Assembly: GCA_002104905.1 (NCBI GenBank)
Contig: MCFE01000647.1
Location: forward strand, 1-49,984
Reading direction: 5' to 3'
Length of the DNA: 49,984 nucleotides
From: Basidiobolus meristosporus CBS 931.73
Lineage: Eukaryota > Fungi > Basidiobolomycota
Under the pieces are notes generated by a model that was given only the letters and a program-made list of their open reading frames with translations, was not told where the DNA came from and made no database searches. Both the position numbers and the translations under genes were made by a program. How positions within the stretch are numbered: position 1 is the first letter of the stretch; each line of letters begins with the position of its first letter. Below are positions 472-49,984 of the stretch, piece by piece.

Positions 472-834
472 TCAAAATCTTTTATAAATATTGCAAACTA
501 ATGGTGTGGAAATTTGCATATCATCCCTCTGAAAAGTATCCAGTTTGCATTTCACATGGTAGTATGTTGATAATTTATGTTGAAAGAGTTCCAAAGATGT
601 TGGCAATTTGTCTTTGACATTAAGGCAAATGCAGTTAAAGGCACTTTGTTCTTTCTTCTGATACTTTAAGGATTCCTCTCCCATATTTCTAGGAGGGCAT
701 TCTTCTCCCATGACAATATCCCAAGGGCCTCTTTCTTGTAGCAGCATCCTCATCTTCACCTTCCACACTTGCTAGTTAGAACCATCCAACTTTTCAGCAG
801 AGGGGAAAATTCCAGTAATAGCAGTAGTAGACAT
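472..834 (-). pseudogene. Degenerate Ty1/copia gag N-terminus; the element continues, decayed, toward and past the left edge
   Basis: ATG at 834 reads MSTTAITGIFPSAEKLDGSN*QVWKVKMRMLLQERGPWDIV, the copia gag KLDGSNY-x-WK-x-KM motif, with an in-frame TAG at 774-772 where Tyr is expected. It lies directly downstream of an LTR and PBS. Confidence 0.85.
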
Positions 835-852
835 TGCAGAGAGTGACAGCTT

Positions 853-865
853 GGGGCTCATAACC
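853..865 (-). other. Primer-binding site complementary to the anticodon stem-loop of initiator tRNA-Met (half-tRNA priming)
   Basis: The minus strand reads GGTTATGAGCCCC immediately after the LTR end at 866. The + strand GGGCTCATAACC (854-865) is the anticodon arm of yeast tRNAiMet, as used by Ty5/copia-type elements. Confidence 0.85.
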
Positions 866-1170
866 TATTGTAAGAGTCTTGGAGATATTGGAAATGATTG
901 AGAGAGCAAGTAGATTATATAGGTTTTCCTCAATGATTTGTTGAATGTAAAAGTAGTATTTATTCTTTTACATGGTCTTAGAGAAATAAACACATATTAT
1001 ATGTCTAGGAAGGTCCCAAGAGCATGTGTTCAAGGCTTGGGGCTGTTTGGGCAACTTATCAAAATCTCATGTTCTGGGTACCTGATACTTTGGTGAAAAT
1101 ATTCTAAGTAAATCCCAACAAGGAATTTGGTCAAAACTCATATTTAGGTGTAATTACAACAGTTTCAACA
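866..1170 (-). mobile_element. Older 5' LTR of the left copia element
   Basis: Aligns along its length with LTRs 1463-1794 and 48213-48545 (roughly 80% by eye). It has a G>A change in the terminal TGTTG, a ~16-bp insertion and a ~45-bp deletion. The right boundary is approximate. Confidence 0.85.
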
Positions 1171-2256: not shown

Positions 2257-3132
2257 TTAATTGGATTCGCCTTGGCTATGCTCAAGCGGCATGAAGATGA
2301 TCTTGGTGCCTGAATTCTTGCTCATCGTGCTCAATGTCTCAAGATAACGGATCTGCATTGCAGCAGGAGTATTGAGGATCTCGGCTGCTTCGCGCATCAA
2401 CTTGGCCGAGTCTACTTCGGCTTGAGCAGAAATCACTTTGGACTCTCCAATCCTCTTTTGGGTCGCAGCACTCGACAAAGACTCCTGTAGTTCCTTAGAG
2501 AACTCAAGGTCTTTGATCAGTATTGACTCGACGGTAATTCCCCACTCTCTAGCAGGAATATCAATCATCTCACGAATATCGTCGGCAATTGTTTCTCGAT
2601 TCTCGATACAGTCCTGGAGCACACGAGTGCCAAGAACTCCTCGCAAGGTGGTCTGGGTGCGTTCAATGAGAGCCTGTCGAACGTTGATTACACCGAACAA
2701 CGCCTGGTATGGATCGATTACATGGTAATAGACAACAGAATCAATTTTGATGTTGACATTATCCTTGGTCATGATACGGATGTTTTCAATCAAGGCAAGT
2801 TGAACTTTGATGTCCACGTGATGAAGTTTCTCGGTGAAGACATTTACCGTGGTCAACCCCGGGTCGACACATTTGTAAACACGCCCGAATTGCGACACTA
2901 AGCCTACGTATCCTTGATCCACCTCTTTGTTAGGATTGGGACAGCAGAAGCAGCCAGGAATTGAGCCAAGAGCTCCGAAAAGATTCCCTAGAGCTTGTAA
3001 TGCTACTCCATAGAAACCGGAGACGGGCTCCGCGGGGATTTCTCTAGCAAAGGATTTGGACATCACATGATTGGATGGTTGAGCAGTTAAGACTCCACGC
3101 ACCTCAGAATCTGTAGGTTGCTTGTTAGTCAT
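2257..3132 (-). CDS. Stomatin-family SPFH/band-7 membrane protein (291 aa, intronless)
   Basis: SPFH motifs MTKDNVNIKIDSVVYY, TQTTLRGVLG, WGITVESILIKD and AAMQIRYLETL; Cys-rich GCFCC membrane-proximal segment. Confidence 0.93.
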   Translation of the reverse strand: MTNKQPTDSEVRGVLTAQPSNHVMSKSFAREIPAEPVSGFYGVALQALGNLFGALGSIPGCFCCPNPNKEVDQGYVGLVSQFGRVYKCVDPGLTTVNVFTEKLHHVDIKVQLALIENIRIMTKDNVNIKIDSVVYYHVIDPYQALFGVINVRQALIERTQTTLRGVLGTRVLQDCIENRETIADDIREMIDIPAREWGITVESILIKDLEFSKELQESLSSAATQKRIGESKVISAQAEVDSAKLMREAAEILNTPAAMQIRYLETLSTMSKNSGTKIIFMPLEHSQGESN

Positions 3133-3458: not shown

Positions 3459-3980
3459 TTACCTTCGATTGACTTTATTTAGAAACGCTTGGGATGTAAA
3501 CATACAAGCAGACATCTGGGATGCTCTTTGATGGGACTGACCTTCCCAGTCACCCATGGTATTAGGAAACCTGCAGTAAGATCCATCAGGAAAGACAAAC
3601 GAAGAAATCTGCGAAAGACTTATATAAATGTCGTTAACATCCTTTTTGCTTTCTTCTTCATAATACTCTAATTGGTGGCCGGTCATGGTGACAGAAATCA
3701 TATTTTGGATGGCTTGGTTACCATGATAAACTTGGCGAGGTTTTTGGGTAACAGTAGTATTGTAAGATATGATGCCAGAAAGAAGAGAGTTGGGAATATC
3801 TTTGGTTTGGAAATTTAGTCGCATATGTTTGGGACAGGAATAATTTGTTGAACGGTATCTGTCATAGGTGTACCAGTAGCAAGAATAATTTTGGTATTTT
3901 TTGTAAGATCCGTAATTTTAATCGAACAGGATCGACCTGTCTTGGTATTTTTCAAGTGGATTTTGACGAGTGATCACCCG
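3459..3980 (-). pseudogene. Frameshifted fragment of an SF2 helicase of the poxvirus D6/D11 (VETF-S/NPH-I)-like group
   Basis: Frame A reads (decayed DExH) KIHLKNTKTG...KIILATGTPMTDTVQQI, with TGTPM at 3877-3863 and a stop at 3817-3815. Frame B continues LLSGIISYNTTVTQKPRQVYHGNQAIQNMISVTMTGHQLEYY...SQISSFVFPDGSY. No intron signals explain the shift. Confidence 0.6.
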
Positions 3981-4339
3981 GGCTTTTTCCTAAAGTGAAT
4001 GGTGTGAACTGGCAATACAGTTAGCACTATCACACAATCTACCATTCTGCCTGTTCTACCTCAATGAGCCTCAAGGTGACGTCCAAACTAATTCCCTCAT
4101 ACGATCCTCGGTGGTTTTCTCCACGGGTAGTGACTAGCAAGCAATAGTGAAGAATCCTGGTTTGCATAGAACATAGCCCAAAAATTTAGCTGTTGATTGG
4201 CTGCATCATTTATACTGCCTGTCATCTAATCTATTCATCAAGTGGCACTCCAAGAAATGGTTTATAAGTAAAAAATCAACATTTTTACAATGAAGATGGC
4301 CAAATATGGAGTTTATAGATGTTATCCCTATGAAAAATC

Positions 4340-4620
4340 TCAAACTTGGAATTCATCTGATTCTTAGCTGGTATTCTGCTGGTATTCTAATGGTATTTTG
4401 CTGGTATTCAGCTGGTGTTTTTGGTTTAAAATCTCAGATGCAATTTTTGATGGAAGTAATGGGCAGCTAATTACCAAATATGGCATGGATGCTAGTTGGC
4501 CTAGTCTCCTCCTGGAGAATTTGTTTGCTCGCATGCACATCAGCTAACAACAGAGATAGTGAGAGTTGTCAATTTTGAGAAACTTGGAATTCAGCTGATA
4601 TTATGATGATATTTTGCTGG
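4340..4620. repeat. Degenerate repeat with tandem ~10-11 bp GCTGGTATT(C/T) units
   Basis: gctggtattctgctggtattctaatggtattttgctggtattcagctggtgttt at ~4367-4420; AAACTTGGAATTCA-x-CTGAT occurs at ~4344 and again at ~4580. Confidence 0.5.
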
Positions 4621-5468
4621 CCTTTTCTTAATTTTTTTTCTTAGGGTTATATGAATAGAACCCACACATACACACACATATATATATATAGGTACTAGTC
4701 ATATACACAATTTCAAGCCAGACCCCCAAGTTGCATGGGACAGGAGGATGAGAAGAAAGAGATACGAATGCAACAGAAATACGAAGCCCAGATTTTGTCA
4801 TTACAACTATTTTTTCACAGCTGAGGATCAGCTTTCGCTCCAGTCGGGTAATAATTGTGGTGCGTGAATAGACGGCCTTCGAGATACCGCTGTAGTATGG
4901 TTCATTGTTGGAACATCTCATCACGACAGCTTAGACCTATGCCCACTTCCCGCCAATGTGTATTCCAGTATTTCTGAGGCACCGTTGTCCTCATAAGCAT
5001 ATAGGATCTAATTGAAGGTATATCTTCACCTGCTTCCTAGTGCCACTTTTAGTTGCTTTGACATCCAACCTTTCAATCCATGACGCAATAGGTTTCCCCG
5101 CTACTTCGCCCTGGAGTACTTCAACTCGATTTCCTTAATGAATCACAAATGCTTCTAGCGTCAGCACTGTTTGGCAGCTACCTTCCCCACTGCAGCCATA
5201 GCATGAGCTAACCAATGGATCACTTCGTGGAGCAACTCCTCAGGCATATTACATTCAGCATTTTCGTCAAAGCCAAAACTTCCATCTGCCCAACAACAAT
5301 CGTTTATACATCCGGTTGAACGGGAATTATTAAATAGATTTATCAATAGCAACCTAGCAGGGAATGCCTAACAAAAAGGATACTACAAAATGATTACAAA
5401 GTTCGATGTTATGGTCATGGCTGTAGAGTGCGTATACAGCCATCGTCATATATTAATCTGAGGGTTGG

Positions 5469-8060
5469 TTAGGCCTCAATGTTGGATATCACTGTTAGCG
5501 CACCGAATCCACGCAACGATATGACGGTCCAATCGGGCATACTATCTCGGAAGCTGTCGAGGGTAGGGAGATGTTTCTTGTAGTCGTCGAAGTAACAGTA
5601 TATGGAGATAGGATATTTCTCCATCCTGGCGGTTTTGACGCTGAGCGTGGTGTTCTTTTCGAACTCCCGCTTGAAGACAAAGATCCTTCTGCCATCGATG
5701 CTGCCTTTGATCGGGTTCCCATCAACCGAGTATTCCTCGGCCGGACTGTAGGGAACCAGGAAGCTGCATGTTCTTGTCTCCGGCGCGTAGATTGATAGCT
5801 GGATTTCTCGCCCGCCTCCTACCAAGGCGGTGCTGGTTATCTGGGATGTTATAGGCTGTATCTCTTGGCGGGCAAAGGCTGGTTTCGCGGTCGAATTCCA
5901 AACGCACTCGTGTACTCCGGCATCCCGGAAGCACCTTGTGTCGGCATTAGGATCCAGGGATTTTAGAAGCTTGGGCAGATCGCAGACGGATCGAAACACA
6001 GTCCAGTCATTACCAGTCGCTTGCTCATGGTACACATTGTGGAACACGCGAATTGGCGCTTGGGCATTATATGGGAACAGAACACCAGTCAAGATTACCA
6101 TGAGCACCACCCAGAGCGTCAGTAAGCCTACCAAGCAGGGGAACGAGTCGCCTTTCTGGAACCAGGGGATGATGCAGATTAAACATGTAACGAATGCAAC
6201 AGAGAACAGCACATAAACCATGAAGGGTGGCGTGCCGTCCGCCACGGTCTGGGATGTCGCATCGGATAGGATATTAACGACGTCGATGACCACGAAGAGT
6301 GGAGGCAGGCAGCTAATTGTCATTCGGATTGGCCAAACCCATTTTGGGATGGAGGTGGTCTGGCTCCAGACGCACCACCGGAACTCAATTCCCTCTAGAA
6401 CCAAGGCACCAACAAAGTGAGCCAGGGTGAACCATAGTATGTAATAGAAAATCCCCAGCTTGGAAGCCCCCGTAACGACAGCAATCAGGGTGGCGAACCA
6501 CCAGATTTGCATCATCCCGTGATAGGCCAAGCGGTCCCGGTTGATGTTGGACTTGAACACAAACGTGCTCCCGGAAAATCGGTTTTCGAGCCATCTGGAA
6601 GCCCATTGCGCCATTGCATACGCCCAGACAGTAGTGGAGCAGAAGGCGATTATCACCAGGGTGGGTCGGCCATAGACAACATTCCCGTTCACCTTGGATA
6701 GGTAGAAAGCGAACAGAACGCTGAACAGTATCGCGAAGATGATGGTCAACACTGTGGTAAGTAGCGACCTCAGCAGAGGGAGCACGAACTCCCGCACCTT
6801 GATCCCTTGCGGCTTTTCTCCCGAGTGTCGTCTCATCAGGAAATACCCCAGCGCGTAGAAGAGCGGGATGATGACCAGCAGGGCAATGTTAATCCCGATA
6901 TACCACTTGAAACTGTAGATGGCGGTGGTTTTGCCCAGCAGGTCGTAATGGATGGCGTAGCGAATGGGGAAATTGGTGCCCTGATACAGGTAATCCGACT
7001 TGGCCAATGCTCTGGTGGTTGCGAGGGTCACCCCTCCCATCTGCTGGACTGATTTGGGCGAGGTAGAATTGATGCTGTCTAGTAGCGTATGGTAGTGAGA
7101 TCTGCGTTGATAGAACGCAATATCCAAGCCGGGCAAGCTGTGCTGGTATGCATACACCTCGAAGTCCGTGCTTGACTTGATCAAGCCCAACTTGAAGACG
7201 TCATTGGCGATGACCGACGTGTGTGGGTAAGGGGCGTGGGAATAGAAACGATTCAACGGCTCATCGGACGAGCGAAATACCATGGACCTCCCGCCTGCAC
7301 CTGCGCCCTCCAAATTGATGAATGCCCGAACATCCTTGGACCAGGGGTGGTTCATGAAACCCTCACTCCCAAGCAGGCCTATCTCCTCGCAGTTGTTGAT
7401 GTTGAGGATCACTGTGTCTGCGATGGGGTTTTCAATGATACTACGAGCAATCTCTAGCGCAACCACCACGCCAACCCCATCATCCGTAGCCCCATAACTA
7501 AAGGGGACGCTGTCATAATGAGCGGAAATCAGCAAGGCCTCCGGACGATTCTTGGTTCCCACAACGCGCAGGAGTAGATTGGTGGATTCAAGATAGCGCC
7601 AGCCAGAATATGGTCCCCCACCCAAGCTAAATCCGGTATAGGTGGAGTTGTCATTGGTGACCAGGTCCACCGTTCGATTTAGAGCCTTTCCCCTGGCGGA
7701 GAGCTCGTTCATGACCCCAACTATGTATTCCTGGGTTTTCAGGTTGGCCTCTGAGTTGAAAGGGTGCGGGGCAGATGCAATGGTTTGGAGGTGTCCCCAT
7801 GCCTTGTCTGCGGAAAACGCATCGTTCTCGGTTGCAGGTAGGGGGTCGGGCAGCTGCTTCCGCACTGGTAAAACGATGGCAAAGGCGATGGCGTATACAA
7901 CAATCAGTAGCGAATACACAATGAGCGAATTCTTGGTGGGGAGGAAGCGCGACATCCCCTTTTTTTTCTCATCGTACTCCATCTCAGCCGACAACTTCAT
8001 CTTGTGCTGCACAGGCGAGGACGCAATGTATGCTGATGCAACGACAGGGCCATAGCCCAT
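5469..8060 (-). CDS. M28 family membrane metallopeptidase (ERMP1/Fxna, vacuolar Pff1-like), intronless
   Basis: SAHYDSV, GATDDGVGV, NNCEEIGLLGS, FINLEGAGAGG, STDFEVY, GLDIAFY..RSHYHT; N-terminal TM helix and multi-TM C-half. The track start at 8114 is TTG; candidate ATGs are 8060, 8000 and 7982. Confidence 0.92.
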   Translation of the reverse strand: MGYGPVVASAYIASSPVQHKMKLSAEMEYDEKKKGMSRFLPTKNSLIVYSLLIVVYAIAFAIVLPVRKQLPDPLPATENDAFSADKAWGHLQTIASAPHPFNSEANLKTQEYIVGVMNELSARGKALNRTVDLVTNDNSTYTGFSLGGGPYSGWRYLESTNLLLRVVGTKNRPEALLISAHYDSVPFSYGATDDGVGVVVALEIARSIIENPIADTVILNINNCEEIGLLGSEGFMNHPWSKDVRAFINLEGAGAGGRSMVFRSSDEPLNRFYSHAPYPHTSVIANDVFKLGLIKSSTDFEVYAYQHSLPGLDIAFYQRRSHYHTLLDSINSTSPKSVQQMGGVTLATTRALAKSDYLYQGTNFPIRYAIHYDLLGKTTAIYSFKWYIGINIALLVIIPLFYALGYFLMRRHSGEKPQGIKVREFVLPLLRSLLTTVLTIIFAILFSVLFAFYLSKVNGNVVYGRPTLVIIAFCSTTVWAYAMAQWASRWLENRFSGSTFVFKSNINRDRLAYHGMMQIWWFATLIAVVTGASKLGIFYYILWFTLAHFVGALVLEGIEFRWCVWSQTTSIPKWVWPIRMTISCLPPLFVVIDVVNILSDATSQTVADGTPPFMVYVLFSVAFVTCLICIIPWFQKGDSFPCLVGLLTLWVVLMVILTGVLFPYNAQAPIRVFHNVYHEQATGNDWTVFRSVCDLPKLLKSLDPNADTRCFRDAGVHECVWNSTAKPAFARQEIQPITSQITSTALVGGGREIQLSIYAPETRTCSFLVPYSPAEEYSVDGNPIKGSIDGRRIFVFKREFEKNTTLSVKTARMEKYPISIYCYFDDYKKHLPTLDSFRDSMPDWTVISLRGFGALTVISNIEA

Positions 8061-43972: not shown

Positions 43973-46411
43973 CTAAAATTTGTACGTCCATCCCTCACCG
44001 CTACCTTCATCCTCTCGTGAATCGTTGCCGCCGTATTCCCCACTTGAGCCTCCGCCGTTTCCGCCATAATTACCTCCGGAGCCGCCGCCACTACCACCAT
44101 AGTTGCTAACAGAGCCACTACCGTTACCGCCATATCCACCGGAGCTGCCACCGTTACCACCATAATCACCTCCTGAGCCGCCACCATTGCCCCCATATCC
44201 ACCAGAAGAGCCACCACCATTACCACCATATCCACTAGAGCCACCACCGTTACCGCTATATCCACTGGAGCCACCACCGTTGCCGCCATATCCACCACCG
44301 CTACTATACTTGGTCTCAGAGCCACTACCGTTACCACTGTATCCACCGGAGCCACCACTGTTGCCTCCATATTCACCTGAGCCACCGCTGCTACCACCGT
44401 AACCACCAGAGGAGCCACCACCACTGCCTCCATATCCACCGGAAGAGCCACCACCGCTACCTCCATATCCACCGGAAGAGCCACCACCACTGTTATACTT
44501 CGCCCCAGAGCCACCGCCGTTACCACCATATCCACCGAAGCCACCACCATTACCTCCATATCTACCAGAGCCACCACCGCTACCACCATATCCACTGGAA
44601 CCACCACCATTGCCTCCGTATCCACCAGAAGAGCCGCCACCATTGCCTCCATATCCACCGGAAGAGCCGCTACCACTACCTCCATATCCACCAGAGCCAC
44701 CACCATTGCCTCCATATCCACCAGAAGAGCCACCACCACTACCTCCATATCCACCGGAGCCACCACCATTGCCTCCATATCCACCGGAAGAGCCACCACC
44801 GCTACCTGCATATCCACCGGAAGAGCCACCACCGCTACCTCCATATCCACCAGAGCCACCACCATTGCCTCCATATCCACCAGAGCCACCACCGCTACCT
44901 CCATATCCACCAGAAGAGCCACCACCACTACCTCCATATCCACCAGAAGAGCCACCACCATTGCCTCCATATCCACCAGAAGAGCCACCACCGCTACCTG
45001 CATATCCACCGGAAGAGCCACCACCGCTACCTGCATATCCACCGGAAGAGCCACCGCCGCTACCTCCATATCCACCGGAAGAGCCACCGCCGCTACCTCC
45101 ATATCCACCAGAAGAGCCACCACCATTGCCTCCATATCCACCGGAAGAGCCACCACCGCTACCTGCATATCCACCGGAAGAGCCACCGCCGCTACCTCCA
45201 TATCCACCGGAAGAGCCACCGCCGCTACCTCCATATCCACCAGAAGAGCCACCACCATTGCCTCCATATCCACCAGAAGAGCCACTACCACTGCCTTCAT
45301 ATCCACCGGAACCACCACCATTGCCTCCGTATCCACCAGAAGAGCCACCACCATTGCCTCCATATCCACCAGAAGAGCCACCACCGCTACCTGCATATCC
45401 ACCGGAAGAGCCACCGCCACTACCTCCATATCCACCGGAAGAGCCACCACCGCTACCTCCATATCCACCAGAAGAGCCACCACCATTGCCTCCATATCCA
45501 CCAGAAGAGCCACTACCACTGCCTTCATATCCACCGGAACCACCACCATTGCCTCCGTATCCACCAGAGCTGCCGCCGCTACCTCCATATCTACCGAAAC
45601 CACCGCCGTTACTGCCATAATACCCTCCTGAGCCACCACCACTGCTGTACTTGGTCCCAGAGCCACCGCCATTACCACTATATCCACCAGAGCCACCACC
45701 GTTGCCTCCATACTCTCCTCCTGAGCCACCACTACCACTGTAGCTATTTCCTGAACCACCTCCACCGCCGTATGTGGCGCCAGAGCCTCCCCCATTTCCA
45801 CGATAGTCACCACCAGAGCCATCTCCTTCACCACTGTATTCAGCAGAGCCTCCACCGTTGCCGCCATATTCACTACTGCCACCAGAACCACTGCTTCCAC
45901 CATACTTAGCTCCAGAGCCTCCGCCGTTACCATCACCGTTACCTCCATACCCACTAGAGCCATCACTATTGCCGCCAAATCCACCGGAGCCACCACCATT
46001 ACCACCGTATCCGCCAGAGCCGCCACTGCTTCCTCCATAGTAGCCACCTGAATCATCACTGTTTCTTCCGTATTCATCGCCAGAACCATTATCATTCAAA
46101 TCGTCATCTTCGCCTGAGCCGTTACCACCATAATTAGCACCAGAGCCTGCTCCATTGCCACTGTAGTCCTCTCCGGAGTCGCTGCCGCCATATTTAGCTC
46201 CAGAGCCACTACCATTTCCTCCATGGTCAACACCAGAGCCACTTCCGTTACCACCGTATTCAGTTCCAGATTCACCATTACCAGCGTTATCCACAGCCTT
46301 ATCATCATCAACCCCCGAGTAATCCTCTAGGTTGTAATCACGTCTTATTACAGCCGCATTGGTAATTGCGAGGACAGTCAAAGCAAACAATACGTTGGAT
46401 GTGAATTTCAT
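43973..46411 (-). CDS. Secreted glycine/serine/tyrosine-rich repeat protein (812 aa)
   Basis: Signal peptide MKFTSNVLFALTVLAITNA, a Kex2-like RR, an acidic leader, then GGY(G/A/E)G(S/N)GGGS(S) repeats, ending in GWTYKF with no GPI-type hydrophobic tail. Confidence 0.9.
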   Translation of the reverse strand: MKFTSNVLFALTVLAITNAAVIRRDYNLEDYSGVDDDKAVDNAGNGESGTEYGGNGSGSGVDHGGNGSGSGAKYGGSDSGEDYSGNGAGSGANYGGNGSGEDDDLNDNGSGDEYGRNSDDSGGYYGGSSGGSGGYGGNGGGSGGFGGNSDGSSGYGGNGDGNGGGSGAKYGGSSGSGGSSEYGGNGGGSAEYSGEGDGSGGDYRGNGGGSGATYGGGGGSGNSYSGSGGSGGEYGGNGGGSGGYSGNGGGSGTKYSSGGGSGGYYGSNGGGFGRYGGSGGSSGGYGGNGGGSGGYEGSGSGSSGGYGGNGGGSSGGYGGSGGGSSGGYGGSGGGSSGGYAGSGGGSSGGYGGNGGGSSGGYGGNGGGSGGYEGSGSGSSGGYGGNGGGSSGGYGGSGGGSSGGYGGSGGGSSGGYAGSGGGSSGGYGGNGGGSSGGYGGSGGGSSGGYGGSGGGSSGGYAGSGGGSSGGYAGSGGGSSGGYGGNGGGSSGGYGGSGGGSSGGYGGSGGGSGGYGGNGGGSGGYGGSGGGSSGGYAGSGGGSSGGYGGNGGGSGGYGGSGGGSSGGYGGNGGGSGGYGGSGSGSSGGYGGNGGGSSGGYGGNGGGSSGYGGSGGGSGRYGGNGGGFGGYGGNGGGSGAKYNSGGGSSGGYGGSGGGSSGGYGGSGGGSSGGYGGSSGGSGEYGGNSGGSGGYSGNGSGSETKYSSGGGYGGNGGGSSGYSGNGGGSSGYGGNGGGSSGGYGGNGGGSGGDYGGNGGSSGGYGGNGSGSVSNYGGSGGGSGGNYGGNGGGSSGEYGGNDSREDEGSGEGWTYKF
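44600..45570 (-). repeat. Coding minisatellite: about 30 near-perfect 30/33-bp units
   Basis: + strand units such as CCACCGGAAGAGCCACCACCGCTACCTCCATAT; includes a 228-bp higher-order duplication (matching landmarks at 45281 and 45509). Confidence 0.95.
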
Positions 46412-48054
46412 GTTTCCTACAAAATGAATGCTCTTTTCCTCTCTCATTGTCGTCTTTTATACAATGTGCCTAGAGGATCTCCAGGGGAAAGTTCACGTGG
46501 TAGACGAGAAATGGTTCCTATGCAATCCGGCTCCTTCCCAGATTCTCTGGACAGTCCATTGAATAAGAAATGTGAATCTCCTAAAGTAGCCCACCCAATA
46601 GCAATATCTTGCCAGCAGAGAGATCCGGATGACAGGTATTGAAGGACTCCCGGATTTACATAGATTTGTCTAAATCTGATTGATCTGCTGTAGTACATGC
46701 ATATGATCTCATCAAGCGCCAGGAAGGATTGTGTGTTTAAAATCCCCTAATTTCATCATACAGCACGATGCTTAGCTCAAGCCGGATGCATTGGATTGGC
46801 CAAGTCGAGCCAAGGATCACCCACCTTTTCACACCTCTAGCCAACACTCGTTAGATGAGAGCAGTTTCCTACAATGTTACAACATACATCAGATCTCCAA
46901 CAACGATGTCCAATAGCAGCAGCGCTACACACTTGGTGGAAGTTGAGCATCACCAGCTGGGGAAAGGATACTTCGGCCTGATCAGATCTGAACATTCAAT
47001 ACGCTGATGAGACAGCAGGTGGCCGGGATGAAAGGTTCCAATGGAAATATGCATCTCATACTTCGAGGCTGATCAACAGCAAGCACCATGTCAAAAAGAA
47101 TGTCCGATTCCCCGGGGGTCAGGGTTGCTTTTGCTTACTACGCTTACGCCCTGTCAACCCGTGCTACCTTGGTCTTGAATACAGACGCTCAGGAATCCTC
47201 GTATCATAGCCGCGGCAGGGCTCTGAAGACCAGACGCTCAACAATTTTTGATCAACACTGACCATACTTGCGCTGCTGGGGCGGGCAATTCTATACCTAG
47301 GAATCTCTTCCACACACGCCTAGTTGTTGTGTTGCCATAGATTTCAACCTTATGGAAGGTCCACGTGATTTGGGAAGGTTTTGCCATTCGGTTGGTACCT
47401 AGAGCAGAAGGGAAGTTACGTTTGCTCGCTTGCAGAAATTTGGATCGCTGTTTACTGAGGTGTTGGCATCATGCACCGGCGTTTGGTTAGATACGTATTA
47501 GGGCGGCTTTGTCCTATAGGCTGGAATGTTTGGTGTCACGCTATCCAAAAGATCTGGACGGGCCCGCTTCTCATTCATGTTCGTGCATCCCTTCACCCTG
47601 TAGCAATGCTGCCTATATCGCACAATCAATTAGAATCCCCCACGGGCTTGTTGCTGGAAATTTCGCAGGGGGATGTGCAGACATTGTTGTATCTTCTTGT
47701 GCCGTCTGGAGCCGCCCCTACTTTTTCGGCGATGCCTTGACGAATACACCCCTCTATGAACTTGATCTGATATTTTCTGGCATCTACCTTGTGATCATGG
47801 CCTGTACCAGGTGAACTTTGTATTAATGTGGACATACATGTTTTGAGAACGGTCCTAAAAAGCCAGGTGCTCAAGGTCGCTTTGTAACTTTCAGGGTCAC
47901 TACTATTCCAAAGAACTAGGCAGTATCACACTGCTAATACTTTATATACTGGTGCAATTCCCCAGGTGGTATATCCCAATACACAAATACACTCTTGCCA
48001 GATTTTCTTTTGCTATTGTTGTGGGCTTCAGCACTTCAGTTTCATGTGCGGTGC

Positions 48055-48171: not shown

Positions 48172-48212
48172 TGTGGTAAGTGCCTTGGAGATAATGGAAG
48201 TGATTAGGAGAA
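48172..48212 (-). mobile_element. 41-bp end of an intermediate-age LTR, interrupted by the young element
   Basis: TGTGGTAAGTGCCTTGGAGATAATGGAAGTGATTAGGAGAA matches 48213-48253 at 36/41 positions. Confidence 0.8.
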
Positions 48213-48545
48213 TGTTGTAAGAGTCTTGGAGATATTGGAAGTGATTGGGAGAACAAGTAGATTATGTGGTTTTCACTTAATGATTTATTGAATGTAAAAG
48301 TAGTATTTATACTTTTACATGGTCTTGGCATTACAAACACGTAGAATAGGCTAAGGAAGGTCCCAAGAACATGTGTGCAAAGTTTGGGGCTGTTTGGACA
48401 ACTTTGAGAATTTTCATGTTCTGGGTAAATATTCTAAGTAAATCCCGACAAGGAATTTGGTCAGTATTCTCCTGGATTTGAAGGTGATGATCTAAGTGAC
48501 TAAGTTAGGTGAATATTTAGGTGGAAAATACGAATTTTTACAACA
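48213..48545 (-). mobile_element. 3' LTR (333 bp) of a young Ty1/copia element
   Basis: TGTTGTAA...TTACAACA inverted termini; preceded on the minus strand by a PPT and the RNase H stop codon. Confidence 0.97.
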
Positions 48546-48556: not shown

Positions 48557-49984
48557 CTAAATGTTCATACTGACTAGTCCTAATTTTGACCTAAAATATT
48601 CAAACTTGTCTCTAGCTAATGGTTTGGTAAATATGTCTGCAATCATTTCATCTGTAGGACAGTAAACTAAGCTAACTAAGTTATTCTCTATAGCTTCACG
48701 TATGAAATGATGTCTAATATCTATGTGCTTGGTTCTAGCATGAAAAGTTGGATTTCTACCTAATTGTATACATCCTTGATTATCTTGAAATAAAGTAATA
48801 GGCGTTTTTTGACATAGGCCTAAATCTGTAAAGAGCTTTCTTAACCACATTGCTTCTTTTGTAGCTTCACAGGCTGCCATATACTCTGCCTCTGTAGTAG
48901 AAAGTGCTACGGCTGGTTGCTTTCTTGAATTCCATGAAATGGCTCCTTTACAGTAAAGAAAGGTGTATCCTGTGGTGGATCTTCTGTCTTCTAAATTTTG
49001 TCCCCAATCAGCATCAGAGTATCCCACAAGATCCTGTTCTGAATCCTTATAAGTGTATCTTAAGCAGATATCAGCAGTTCCTTTTAGGTATCTAAAAATC
49101 CGCTTAACTGCTGCAATATGATCAGATCCATAATTCTGATTATGTTGGCTGACAACTCCCACTGAATATGAGATATCTGGACGTGTTCCAAGCATGATAT
49201 ACATCAGACTGCCGACCATAGATTGATAAGGAAAGTCAGGGCTTTCAGATGGCACCAAGCTCTCTTGATTTGGTTGAGTTTTGACCAAGTTAAGGTTTGT
49301 CTCCATTGGGGTAGCTGCCGGTTTACAGTCTTCCATTTTGTACTTCTTTAGTATATCTTGAATATACTTGGATTGGCTTAGGGTAATAGTCTGGGTACTT
49401 CTGTCTATGGAGAACTTAATCCCTAAGTAGTAACTGAGTTCTCCTAGATCGGACATCTTGAACTCCTTAGATAGGCTGGATTTAGTCTCTTCCAATGTTT
49501 CTAGGTTATTGGTGGCTATAATAAGATCATCCACATATAGAGCTAATAGAACTGGATTTGCTCTATCTGGCTTATAGTATATACTATAGTCAGCATTACT
49601 CCTTTTGAAACTCAAAGATTCCAAATAAGAATCTATCTTGCAATTCCAGGCTCTCGGTGATTGTTTGAGACCATATAGTGACTTTTTAAGCTTGCAGACC
49701 AAATGGGGGTTATCTTGGTCAACAAACCCATCAGGCTGGTCCATATACACGTCCTCATCAAGTTCTCCATTCAAAAATGCAGTTTTTACATCCATTTGAT
49801 GAATAAAAAACTTATATTTGGCTGCAATAGCCAATATTAATCTGATGGAATTAAACTTGGCTACCGGTGCAAAGGTCTCAGTATAGTCAAGTCCTTTTGT
49901 TTGAGAGTATCCTTTAGCTACAAGTCTTGCTTTGTATCTTTCAATTGTACCATCAGCCTTGTACTTTGTCTTGAAGACCCATCT
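48557..49984 (-). mobile_element. Ty1/copia pol (reverse transcriptase + RNase H); open to the window edge, 5' part outside the window
   Basis: Uninterrupted frame: RWVFKTK, RYKARLVAKGYSQ, QMDVKTAFLNG, LYGLKQSPRAW, YVDDL, GYSDADW, EAEYMA, HIDIRHHF, ADIFTKPL. Confidence 0.98.

What the first reader, a model, noticed from the sequence alone, without database searches (positions are those of the whole stretch)
3459..3980. Relic of a poxvirus D6/D11-like helicase: possible endogenised giant-virus or linear-plasmid DNA
Seen: two frames join into an SF2 helicase segment with a decayed motif II (...KIH), motif III ATGTPM, then LLSGIISY...P...YHG...V.M..HQ..YY and FVFPDGSY. It is intronless and more AT-rich than neighbouring genes. 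Established, from recall: vaccinia D6 has a similarly spaced LLKGRISYY...P...YHG...MS..Q..Y segment. D6/D11-type helicases are typical of Nucleocytoviricota and of yeast cytoplasmic linear plasmids (pGKL2-type), not of fungal nuclear genes. Inference: an old viral or plasmid insertion beside a retrotransposon cluster.
Basis: partly seen in the sequence, partly recalled or inferred. Interest (0 to 1): 0.75.

Follow-up and report, generated by a model that had tools for sequence, protein, structure and literature searches.

The report
Viral helicase scrap in Basidiobolus fungus
A broken 350-base piece of a giant-virus-type transcription helicase gene sits between two ordinary genes of a Basidiobolus fungus; it belongs to an already reported family of fungal viral fossils, whose intact relatives likely persist as small, coat-less, high-copy DNA elements.

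Summary
The relic is real but smaller and younger than proposed. About 352 bp (3577-3928, minus strand) match residues 210-335 of an intact 956-aa helicase at 81-86% identity; a 16-nt deletion splits the frame. The 'decayed motif II' lies outside the homology. The host is a Basidiobolus. The helicase family is D6 (VETF-small)-like, and its neighbours are PolB, D5, capping enzyme, Rpb2, Rpb5 and split Rpb1. This is the 'fundsalphavirus' group of Gong et al. 2020, already reported in Basidiobolus. It is not a poxvirus, pGKL-type plasmid or cellular SNF2 gene. Two side results bear on a question left open since 2014. First, one closed 51.7-kb relative has no detectable capsid or packaging gene. 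Second, a sample with the same species label holds the gene on multi-kb contigs about 245 times deeper than a host contig. Both fit a capsid-less, high-copy replicon that sheds scraps into the nucleus, but they rest on one record and one sample. The scan noted this family on other DNA before (25 notes), including both readings. Verdict: new member of a known kind.

The parts
3577..3928 (-). Captured fragment of a fundsalphavirus D6/VETF-small-like SF2 helicase gene (about aa 211-335 of 956: motif III and the inter-domain region); the left edge may extend to 3571
3837..3928 (-). First frame piece, with SF2 motif III (ATGTPM)
3833..3834 (.). Site of a 16-nt deletion relative to the other copies: the frameshift between the two pieces
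   Evidence: table 4; the deep contig has 163 letters where the window has 141 (table 5), equal to 16 + 6
3697..3698 (.). Site of an in-frame 6-nt deletion (two residues missing against P0003)
3577..3833 (-). Second frame piece (GIISY ... HQ..YY ... FVFPDGSY)
2257..3132 (-). Host SPFH/Band-7 gene; its start codon lies about 445 bp from the scrap (context only)
5469..7970 (-). Host M28 peptidase gene, 70% identical to a Basidiobolus ranarum protein (context; names the host genus)

Best explanation
The 352-bp stretch is a truncated, frameshifted piece of a fundsalphavirus D6-like helicase gene lying in intergenic DNA of a Basidiobolus chromosome, likely captured recently and by accident, as mitochondrial scraps are, from an element that would replicate and transcribe itself in the fungal cytoplasm. 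Shown: homology, family, breaks, both junctions with host DNA, depth equal to the flanking genes, and a second, less damaged copy in the same sample. Inferred: capture by double-strand-break repair (no target-site duplication seen by eye, no integrase among the relatives scanned) and no function of the scrap (no motif I, II or C-terminal lobe). Also inferred, from the vaccinia match: the intact protein is the ATPase subunit of an early transcription factor that, with a DUF5757 partner, loads the element's own RNA polymerase on AATTGA-type promoters.
For: P0003 match of 81-86%. P0003 and the 32-sequence profile hit only vaccinia VETF-s/D6 (E 4.8e-28) and NPH-I/D11 (1e-20) in the PDB. In the tree, relic + P0003 have SH-aLRT 99, inside a 25-row family clade (100) that holds P0079. 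P0079 is a Linnemannia (Mortierella) elongata AG-77 protein on a 16,401-bp contig, the length of fundsalphavirus contig KV442190.1 in PMC7017919. In 22 relatives' loci the capping enzyme cluster occurs in 18, PolB in 10, Rpb5 in 7, Rpb1-N in 6, Rpb1-C, Rpb2 and D5 in 5 each. Contigs of X1/X2 bridge both junctions with no difference at depth 95-106, against 99-107 for flanking genes. AATTGA stands in 63 of 212 upstream regions, against a shuffle mean of 16.3 and maximum of 28, peaking 40-60 nt before ATG.
Against: The link to the published family rests on organism, contig length and gene set, not on a sequence comparison with the paper's alignments. The tree used a quick LG+G4 search, the relic fills only 16% of columns, and no named pithovirus, iridovirus or pGKL2 sequence was available. 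X1/X2 may be the source of the assembly, so the junction support is not independent. Seven of 12 window-only substitutions are synonymous, more than the 16-32% expected under neutral decay; this suggests divergence within working viral genes before capture, so age cannot be read directly from identity. No empty site could be examined.
Confidence: 0.88

Rival explanations
1. The scrap is the eroded remnant of a much larger integrated viral genome at this site, not a small capture.
For: Larger endogenous fundsalphavirus regions exist in Basidiobolus (PMC7017919 supplement). High-copy repeats lie nearby.
Against: The helicase profile finds nothing else in the 50-kb window (next best 2.3 bits). 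Both edges are sharp, and inside identity is high. Host genes flank it at 0.45 and 1.5 kb. Other viral genes were not searched with profiles in the window.
Confidence: 0.07
2. It derives from a pGKL2-type protein-primed cytoplasmic linear plasmid.
For: Such plasmids also encode a D6/D11-like helicase, capping enzyme and RNA polymerase (recalled). One relative, L002, has 127-nt inverted ends.
Against: The three PolBs scanned hit PF00136 at E 1e-81 to 2e-89, and no protein-primed PolB family was listed. D5, Rpb5 and TFIIS are present. The one closed record has a direct, not inverted, end overlap. 127 nt equals a common assembly k-mer (recalled).
Confidence: 0.02
3. The join is an assembly chimera or a contaminant's DNA.
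For: The only runs that hold the window's version come from one sample that may be its source.
Against: Independent contig sets of two runs bridge both junctions at host depth. The copy carries private deletions. Related low-depth copies occur in a second sample.
Confidence: 0.03

Closest known systems
Fundsalphaviruses, endogenous NCLDV-like elements of early-diverging fungi (Gong, Zhang and Han 2020, PMC7017919)
   Same: Same host genus (B. meristosporus and B. heterosporus are listed). Same helicase family. Same shared gene set in relatives: DNAP, D5, D6/D11-like helicase, methyltransferase/capping enzyme, RPB2, RPB5, split RPB1; MutS, HET, B-lectin, UDG and TFIIS neighbours also recur.
   Different: That study probed with DNAP only and treated the elements as fossils. 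This locus is a helicase-only scrap. A closed capsid-less relative and a very deep copy in a culture are not described in the parts I read.
Physcomitrella patens NCLDV-like regions (Maumus et al. 2014, PMC4083422)
   Same: Same core set (D5, DNAP, FLAP, UDG, SSB, capping, SNF2-like helicase, RP1n, RP1c, RPB2, RPB5, TFIIS). The paper notes that capsid protein and packaging ATPase are absent.
   Different: Moss, decayed, about 13 kb reconstructed. The paper leaves open whether the donor was a tiny helper-dependent virus or pieces of a larger one.
Vaccinia D6 (VETF small subunit, PDB 7amv_W) and D11 (NPH-I, 6rfl_Y)
   Same: Only solved-structure matches; D6 scores higher with the profile. The likely biochemical model.
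   Different: 631-637 aa against about 800-990 aa; distant; not the donor.
Mycodnaviridae (PMC13533422) and the Rhizophagus asfarvirus-like GEVE/fundsbetavirus (PMC10640383)
   Same: Nucleocytoviricota associated with fungi; active high-coverage infection is reported in Allomyces.
   Different: Mycodnaviridae carry MCP, A32 and VLTF3 and are near Algavirales/Imitervirales. The Rhizophagus element is asfarvirus-like and lacks SFII helicase and D5.

Membership tests
Fundsalphavirus | Endogenous in an early-diverging fungus | tested here: met
   Flanking M28 peptidase is 70% identical to B. ranarum, next genus 34%; junction-bridging contigs
Fundsalphavirus | D6/D11-like helicase groups with the published members | tested here: met
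   Clade with P0079 at SH-aLRT 100; P0079 matched to KV442190.1 by organism and 16,401-bp length only
Fundsalphavirus | Linked DNAP, D5, methyltransferase, RPB2, RPB5, split RPB1 | tested here: met
   Met in relatives' loci; the window itself shows only the helicase scrap
Fundsalphavirus | DNAP sister to Pithovirus | not testable with these tools
   No named reference polymerases on hand; the donor's own PolB was not obtained
Poxviridae D6/D11 | Nearest relatives are poxvirus proteins | tested here: not met
   Listed family members score E 1e-139 or better against P0003, vaccinia D6/D11 about 5e-13
pGKL2-type linear plasmid | Protein-primed family B polymerase | tested here: not met
   PF00136-type PolB plus D5 in relatives
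pGKL2-type linear plasmid | Terminal inverted repeats | tested here: inconclusive
   Direct 151-nt overlap in the 51.7-kb record; 127-nt inverted ends in L002, possibly an assembly artefact
Cellular SNF2/Rad54 | Best matches are cellular remodellers | tested here: not met
   2 PDB hits at E<=0.01, both vaccinia; 8 of 9 Atlas rows viral, 1 without taxa
Mycodnaviridae | Major capsid protein and A32 ATPase | tested here: not met
   None by Pfam or local profiles in relatives; the donor genome itself was not available

The most novel reading that the evidence does not exclude
Fundsalphaviruses are not only fossils but living, capsid-less, plasmid-like descendants of giant viruses. They would be closed replicons of about 50-90 kb that keep DNA replication and poxvirus-like early transcription, have lost virion and late genes, carry variable cargo, and run at hundreds of copies per genome in some Basidiobolus strains. 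Strains without the free element, like this one, keep only nuclear scraps.
Probability: 0.55. Interest if true: 0.75.

Novelty: new member of a known kind. Interest (0 to 1): 0.38.

Why it matters
The scrap alone adds one more locus to a family already reported in this genus. Its value is as a pointer. It records recent transfer from an element that seems still abundant in a related culture, and that gives a culturable system in which to settle the question raised for moss in 2014 (PMC4083422): are these Nucleocytoviricota-like gene sets pieces of a big virus or the whole genome of a small capsid-less replicon? A yes would be a giant-virus-to-plasmid transition in fungi, independent of the protein-primed yeast killer plasmids.

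Tried and rejected
No whole genome is held, so no genome-wide scan for other viral fragments and no empty-site test were possible. Pfam on the two relic frames: 0 families. phmmer of the fragment alone against the PDB: only chance-level hits, best E 0.017. P0003 alone in viral contigs: 1 candidate, not confirmed. PLSDB plasmids: no match, but that collection is bacterial. No RNA holder was listed. X3 shows no cover at the locus or over most of the window, which is uninformative. Capsid family search by handle reached 1 of 3 records (17 kb, no match). The first tree (56 rows, mixture model) did not finish and was replaced by 41 rows under LG+G4; 15 rows were dropped for time. The DUF5757 alignment and the primase-like alignment found no PDB sequence match. 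The Atlas gave no usable hit for the conserved 166-aa protein. The fold search for the 226-aa conserved protein had no match at E<=0.001; its top rows were SWIB/MDM2-like. Inverted repeats around the insert lie on different diagonals and look like chance. Egoviruses (10.1101/2024.03.23.586382, passages) were rejected: they encode a capsid protein and the text does not mention fungi. A search for Nucleocytoviricota with Basidiobolus gave 0 papers.

Full report
Setting. The window is fungal nuclear DNA with introns. An SPFH gene (2257-3132), an M28 peptidase gene (from 5469) and a SANT/Myb gene lie around the finding, all on the minus strand. The peptidase is 70% identical to a Basidiobolus ranarum protein, and the next genus scores 34%, so the host is a Basidiobolus; the species was not determined. 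No whole genome is held.

The observation. Pfam and the PDB find nothing with the pieces alone. A search among longer proteins gave 14 hits among 69 candidates, led by P0003 (956 aa, 83%, E 1e-40). The exhaustive search gave 10 hits at E<=0.001; nine are of this family and one (P0129) is an unrelated repeat protein. tblastn of P0003 places aa 210-245 at 3931-3824 (86%) and aa 244-341 at 3845-3558 (81%). A 32-sequence profile scores the pieces 35.2 and 71.9 bits; the next best stretch of the window scores 2.3 and 20 shuffled windows at most 6.6. The insert has 35.5% GC.

Extent and damage. Contigs of related copies part from the window at 3577 or 3571 and at 3928 or 3923, so the insert is about 352 bp. 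Against those copies the window lacks 6 nt after 3697 and 16 nt after 3833; the second deletion is the frameshift. The 'KIH' read as motif II is outside the insert. The part of P0003 with DEAH scores 18 there (419 of 500 random stretches do as well), while a control inside scores 174 (0 of 500). The scrap has motif III and the inter-domain region only, so it cannot encode a working ATPase (inference). I saw no target-site duplication at the junctions printed.

Family. P0003 has 195 relatives at E<=1e-10 among 7998 candidates scored; the 120 listed are 734-993 aa and include Linnemannia and Mortierella proteins. In the PDB the profile hits only vaccinia D6/VETF-s (4.8e-28) and D11/NPH-I (1e-20). 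Eight of 9 Atlas rows are viral clusters, one named early transcription factor 70-kDa subunit. Three of 80 kept IMG/VR loci and 19 of 24 metagenome loci are family members. Their neighbours are PolB of the PF00136 type, capping enzyme, D5, split Rpb1, Rpb2, Rpb5, TFIIS, UDG, DUF5757, an A18-like helicase and MutS, plus fungal-type cargo such as HET domains. One search scanned 25 of 29 recurrent clusters and 27 of 29 singletons of 150 aa or more (the others were); shorter singletons outside L001-L003 were not scanned in Pfam. In a 41-row tree the relic pairs with P0003 (SH-aLRT 99) inside a family clade (100) apart from 16 other NCLDV-type helicases (quick search, relic fills 16% of columns).

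Prior description. Gong, Zhang and Han 2020 (PMC7017919; main text parts 1-2 of 3, supplement parts 1-2 of 7 and passages) name this group fundsalphavirus. They list the same shared genes and hosts that include B. meristosporus, B. heterosporus and Mortierella elongata. Maumus et al. 2014 (PMC4083422; passages and Discussion) describe the moss members, note that capsid protein and packaging ATPase are missing, and leave the nature of the donor open. The word fundsalphavirus occurs in 1 paper of the library. Searches for a capsid-less or active form showed none in their listings; most subscription journals are not in the library. PMC13533422, PMC10640383, PMC13524828 and PMC12142844 were seen as passages only.

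Other copies. In the window's own sample (X1, X2) contigs bridge both junctions without difference at depth 95-106, like the flanking genes at 99-107. A second copy at depth 85-91 differs at 21 of 244 positions, keeps the deleted bases and continues into more helicase sequence. No deep contig is seen there. In a second sample with the same species label (X4-X6, one sample, one study) the gene lies on contigs of 3962, 4404 and 5560 nt at depths 4914, 4709 and 2044. Beside them are low-depth copies (3.6-15.9), one differing from the window at 16 of 291 positions. A 39.9-kb host contig in X4 has depth 20, a ratio near 245. That host differs from the window at 449 positions over 3.3 kb, so it is a distinct strain or species. 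The deep copy differs from the window at 29 of 211 aligned positions. A nuclear tandem array or a co-cultured organism is not excluded, but a single multi-kb contig at such depth is what a free clonal replicon gives (inference). Of 34 listed differences, 12 are private to the window, 7 synonymous and 5 not: too few to date the capture, and hinting that the captures came from different viral variants.

A closed relative. IMG/VR record 3300038443_002148 (51,666 bp) was read in five overlapping loci. Its ends share a direct overlap, 150 of 151 nt, as in a circular assembly. Of 38 ORFs of 70 aa or more, 19 recur in other family records. Fifteen of these are replication, repair or transcription genes by Pfam or BLAST. 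Of the other four, one folds like T7 gp2.5/ASFV CP312R single-strand binding protein (pLDDT 87.9, E 2.6e-5). One is weakly SWIB-like, one shows primase-like motifs by recall, and one of 166 aa is unexplained. Profiles from 6 capsid and 13 A32 proteins of other fetched NCLDV loci found nothing in six frames of 451,239 bases of 28 overlapping family loci (best E 0.76 and 0.37). Sister profiles did find D5, helicase, Rpb1, Rpb2, Rpb5, TFIIS and PolB. Against this: it is one closed record of unknown host, 19 record-specific ORFs were not folded, and pithoviruses make virions with a divergent capsid gene and no A32 (recalled), so particles are not excluded.

Mechanism. The most likely reading is a cytoplasmic replicon with its own PolB/D5/SSB replication and VETF-like early transcription (AATTGA enriched upstream of genes; its likeness to the mimivirus early promoter and the DUF5757-VETF-large link are recalled). 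It would leak DNA that is ligated into chromosomal breaks. The window holds one such leak, since damaged by two deletions. Retrotransposons are near but not shown to be involved: a copia gag relic at 475-771, a repeat at 1460-1794 that is 94% identical to DNA beside a copia pol at the window's far end, and a high-copy repeat in 4201-4800.

Verdict. I reached the capsid-less and high-copy readings before seeing earlier scan notes that say the same for other genomes; those notes are unchecked and add no independent support.

Noticed in passing
L001, L185, L265, L266, L267 (IMG/VR record of 51,666 bp): Closed fundsalphavirus-type record without detectable capsid, A32 or late transcription factor genes. 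Record-specific cargo includes a phage-type lysozyme with a peptidoglycan-binding domain, a GNAT acetyltransferase, a C1 domain and a B-lectin protein.
   Followed up: yes
L001:6744-8459, L265:14186-15613, L265:15638-16540, L267:8799-10277: Cargo ORFs that by eye and recall resemble a beta-propeller lectin and pore-forming or Cyt-like defence proteins; Pfam gave no firm match. Could be host-benefit cargo, as in yeast killer plasmids.
   Followed up: no
family loci L001-L003, L081-L099, L105, L185, L186, L265-L267: AATTGA in 63 of 212 upstream regions (reverse strand 29; shuffle mean 16.3), peaking 40-60 nt before the start codon: candidate early promoter.
   Followed up: partly
L085-L089, L091: HET-domain genes (9 copies in 6 loci) next to the helicase in the Mortierellaceae-like branch.
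   Followed up: no
L002:1-127 and its other end: Exact 127-nt inverted ends on a 17-kb record that IMG/VR classes as ITR; the length equals a common k-mer, so possibly an artefact.
   Followed up: partly
window 603-1133, 1460-1794, 48210-48545: Very high-copy repeat family (summed contig depth 1e5-1e6 in the window's sample); one copy abuts a copia pol at 48557-49984, perhaps its LTR.
   Followed up: partly
window 43973-46456 (-): 827-aa Gly/Ser/Tyr-rich repeat protein with a signal-peptide-like start; likely a secreted structural protein.
   Followed up: no
window 2279-3072: The SPFH gene has a paralogue about 80% identical on a 32.6-kb contig at half depth (52) in the same sample.
   Followed up: no
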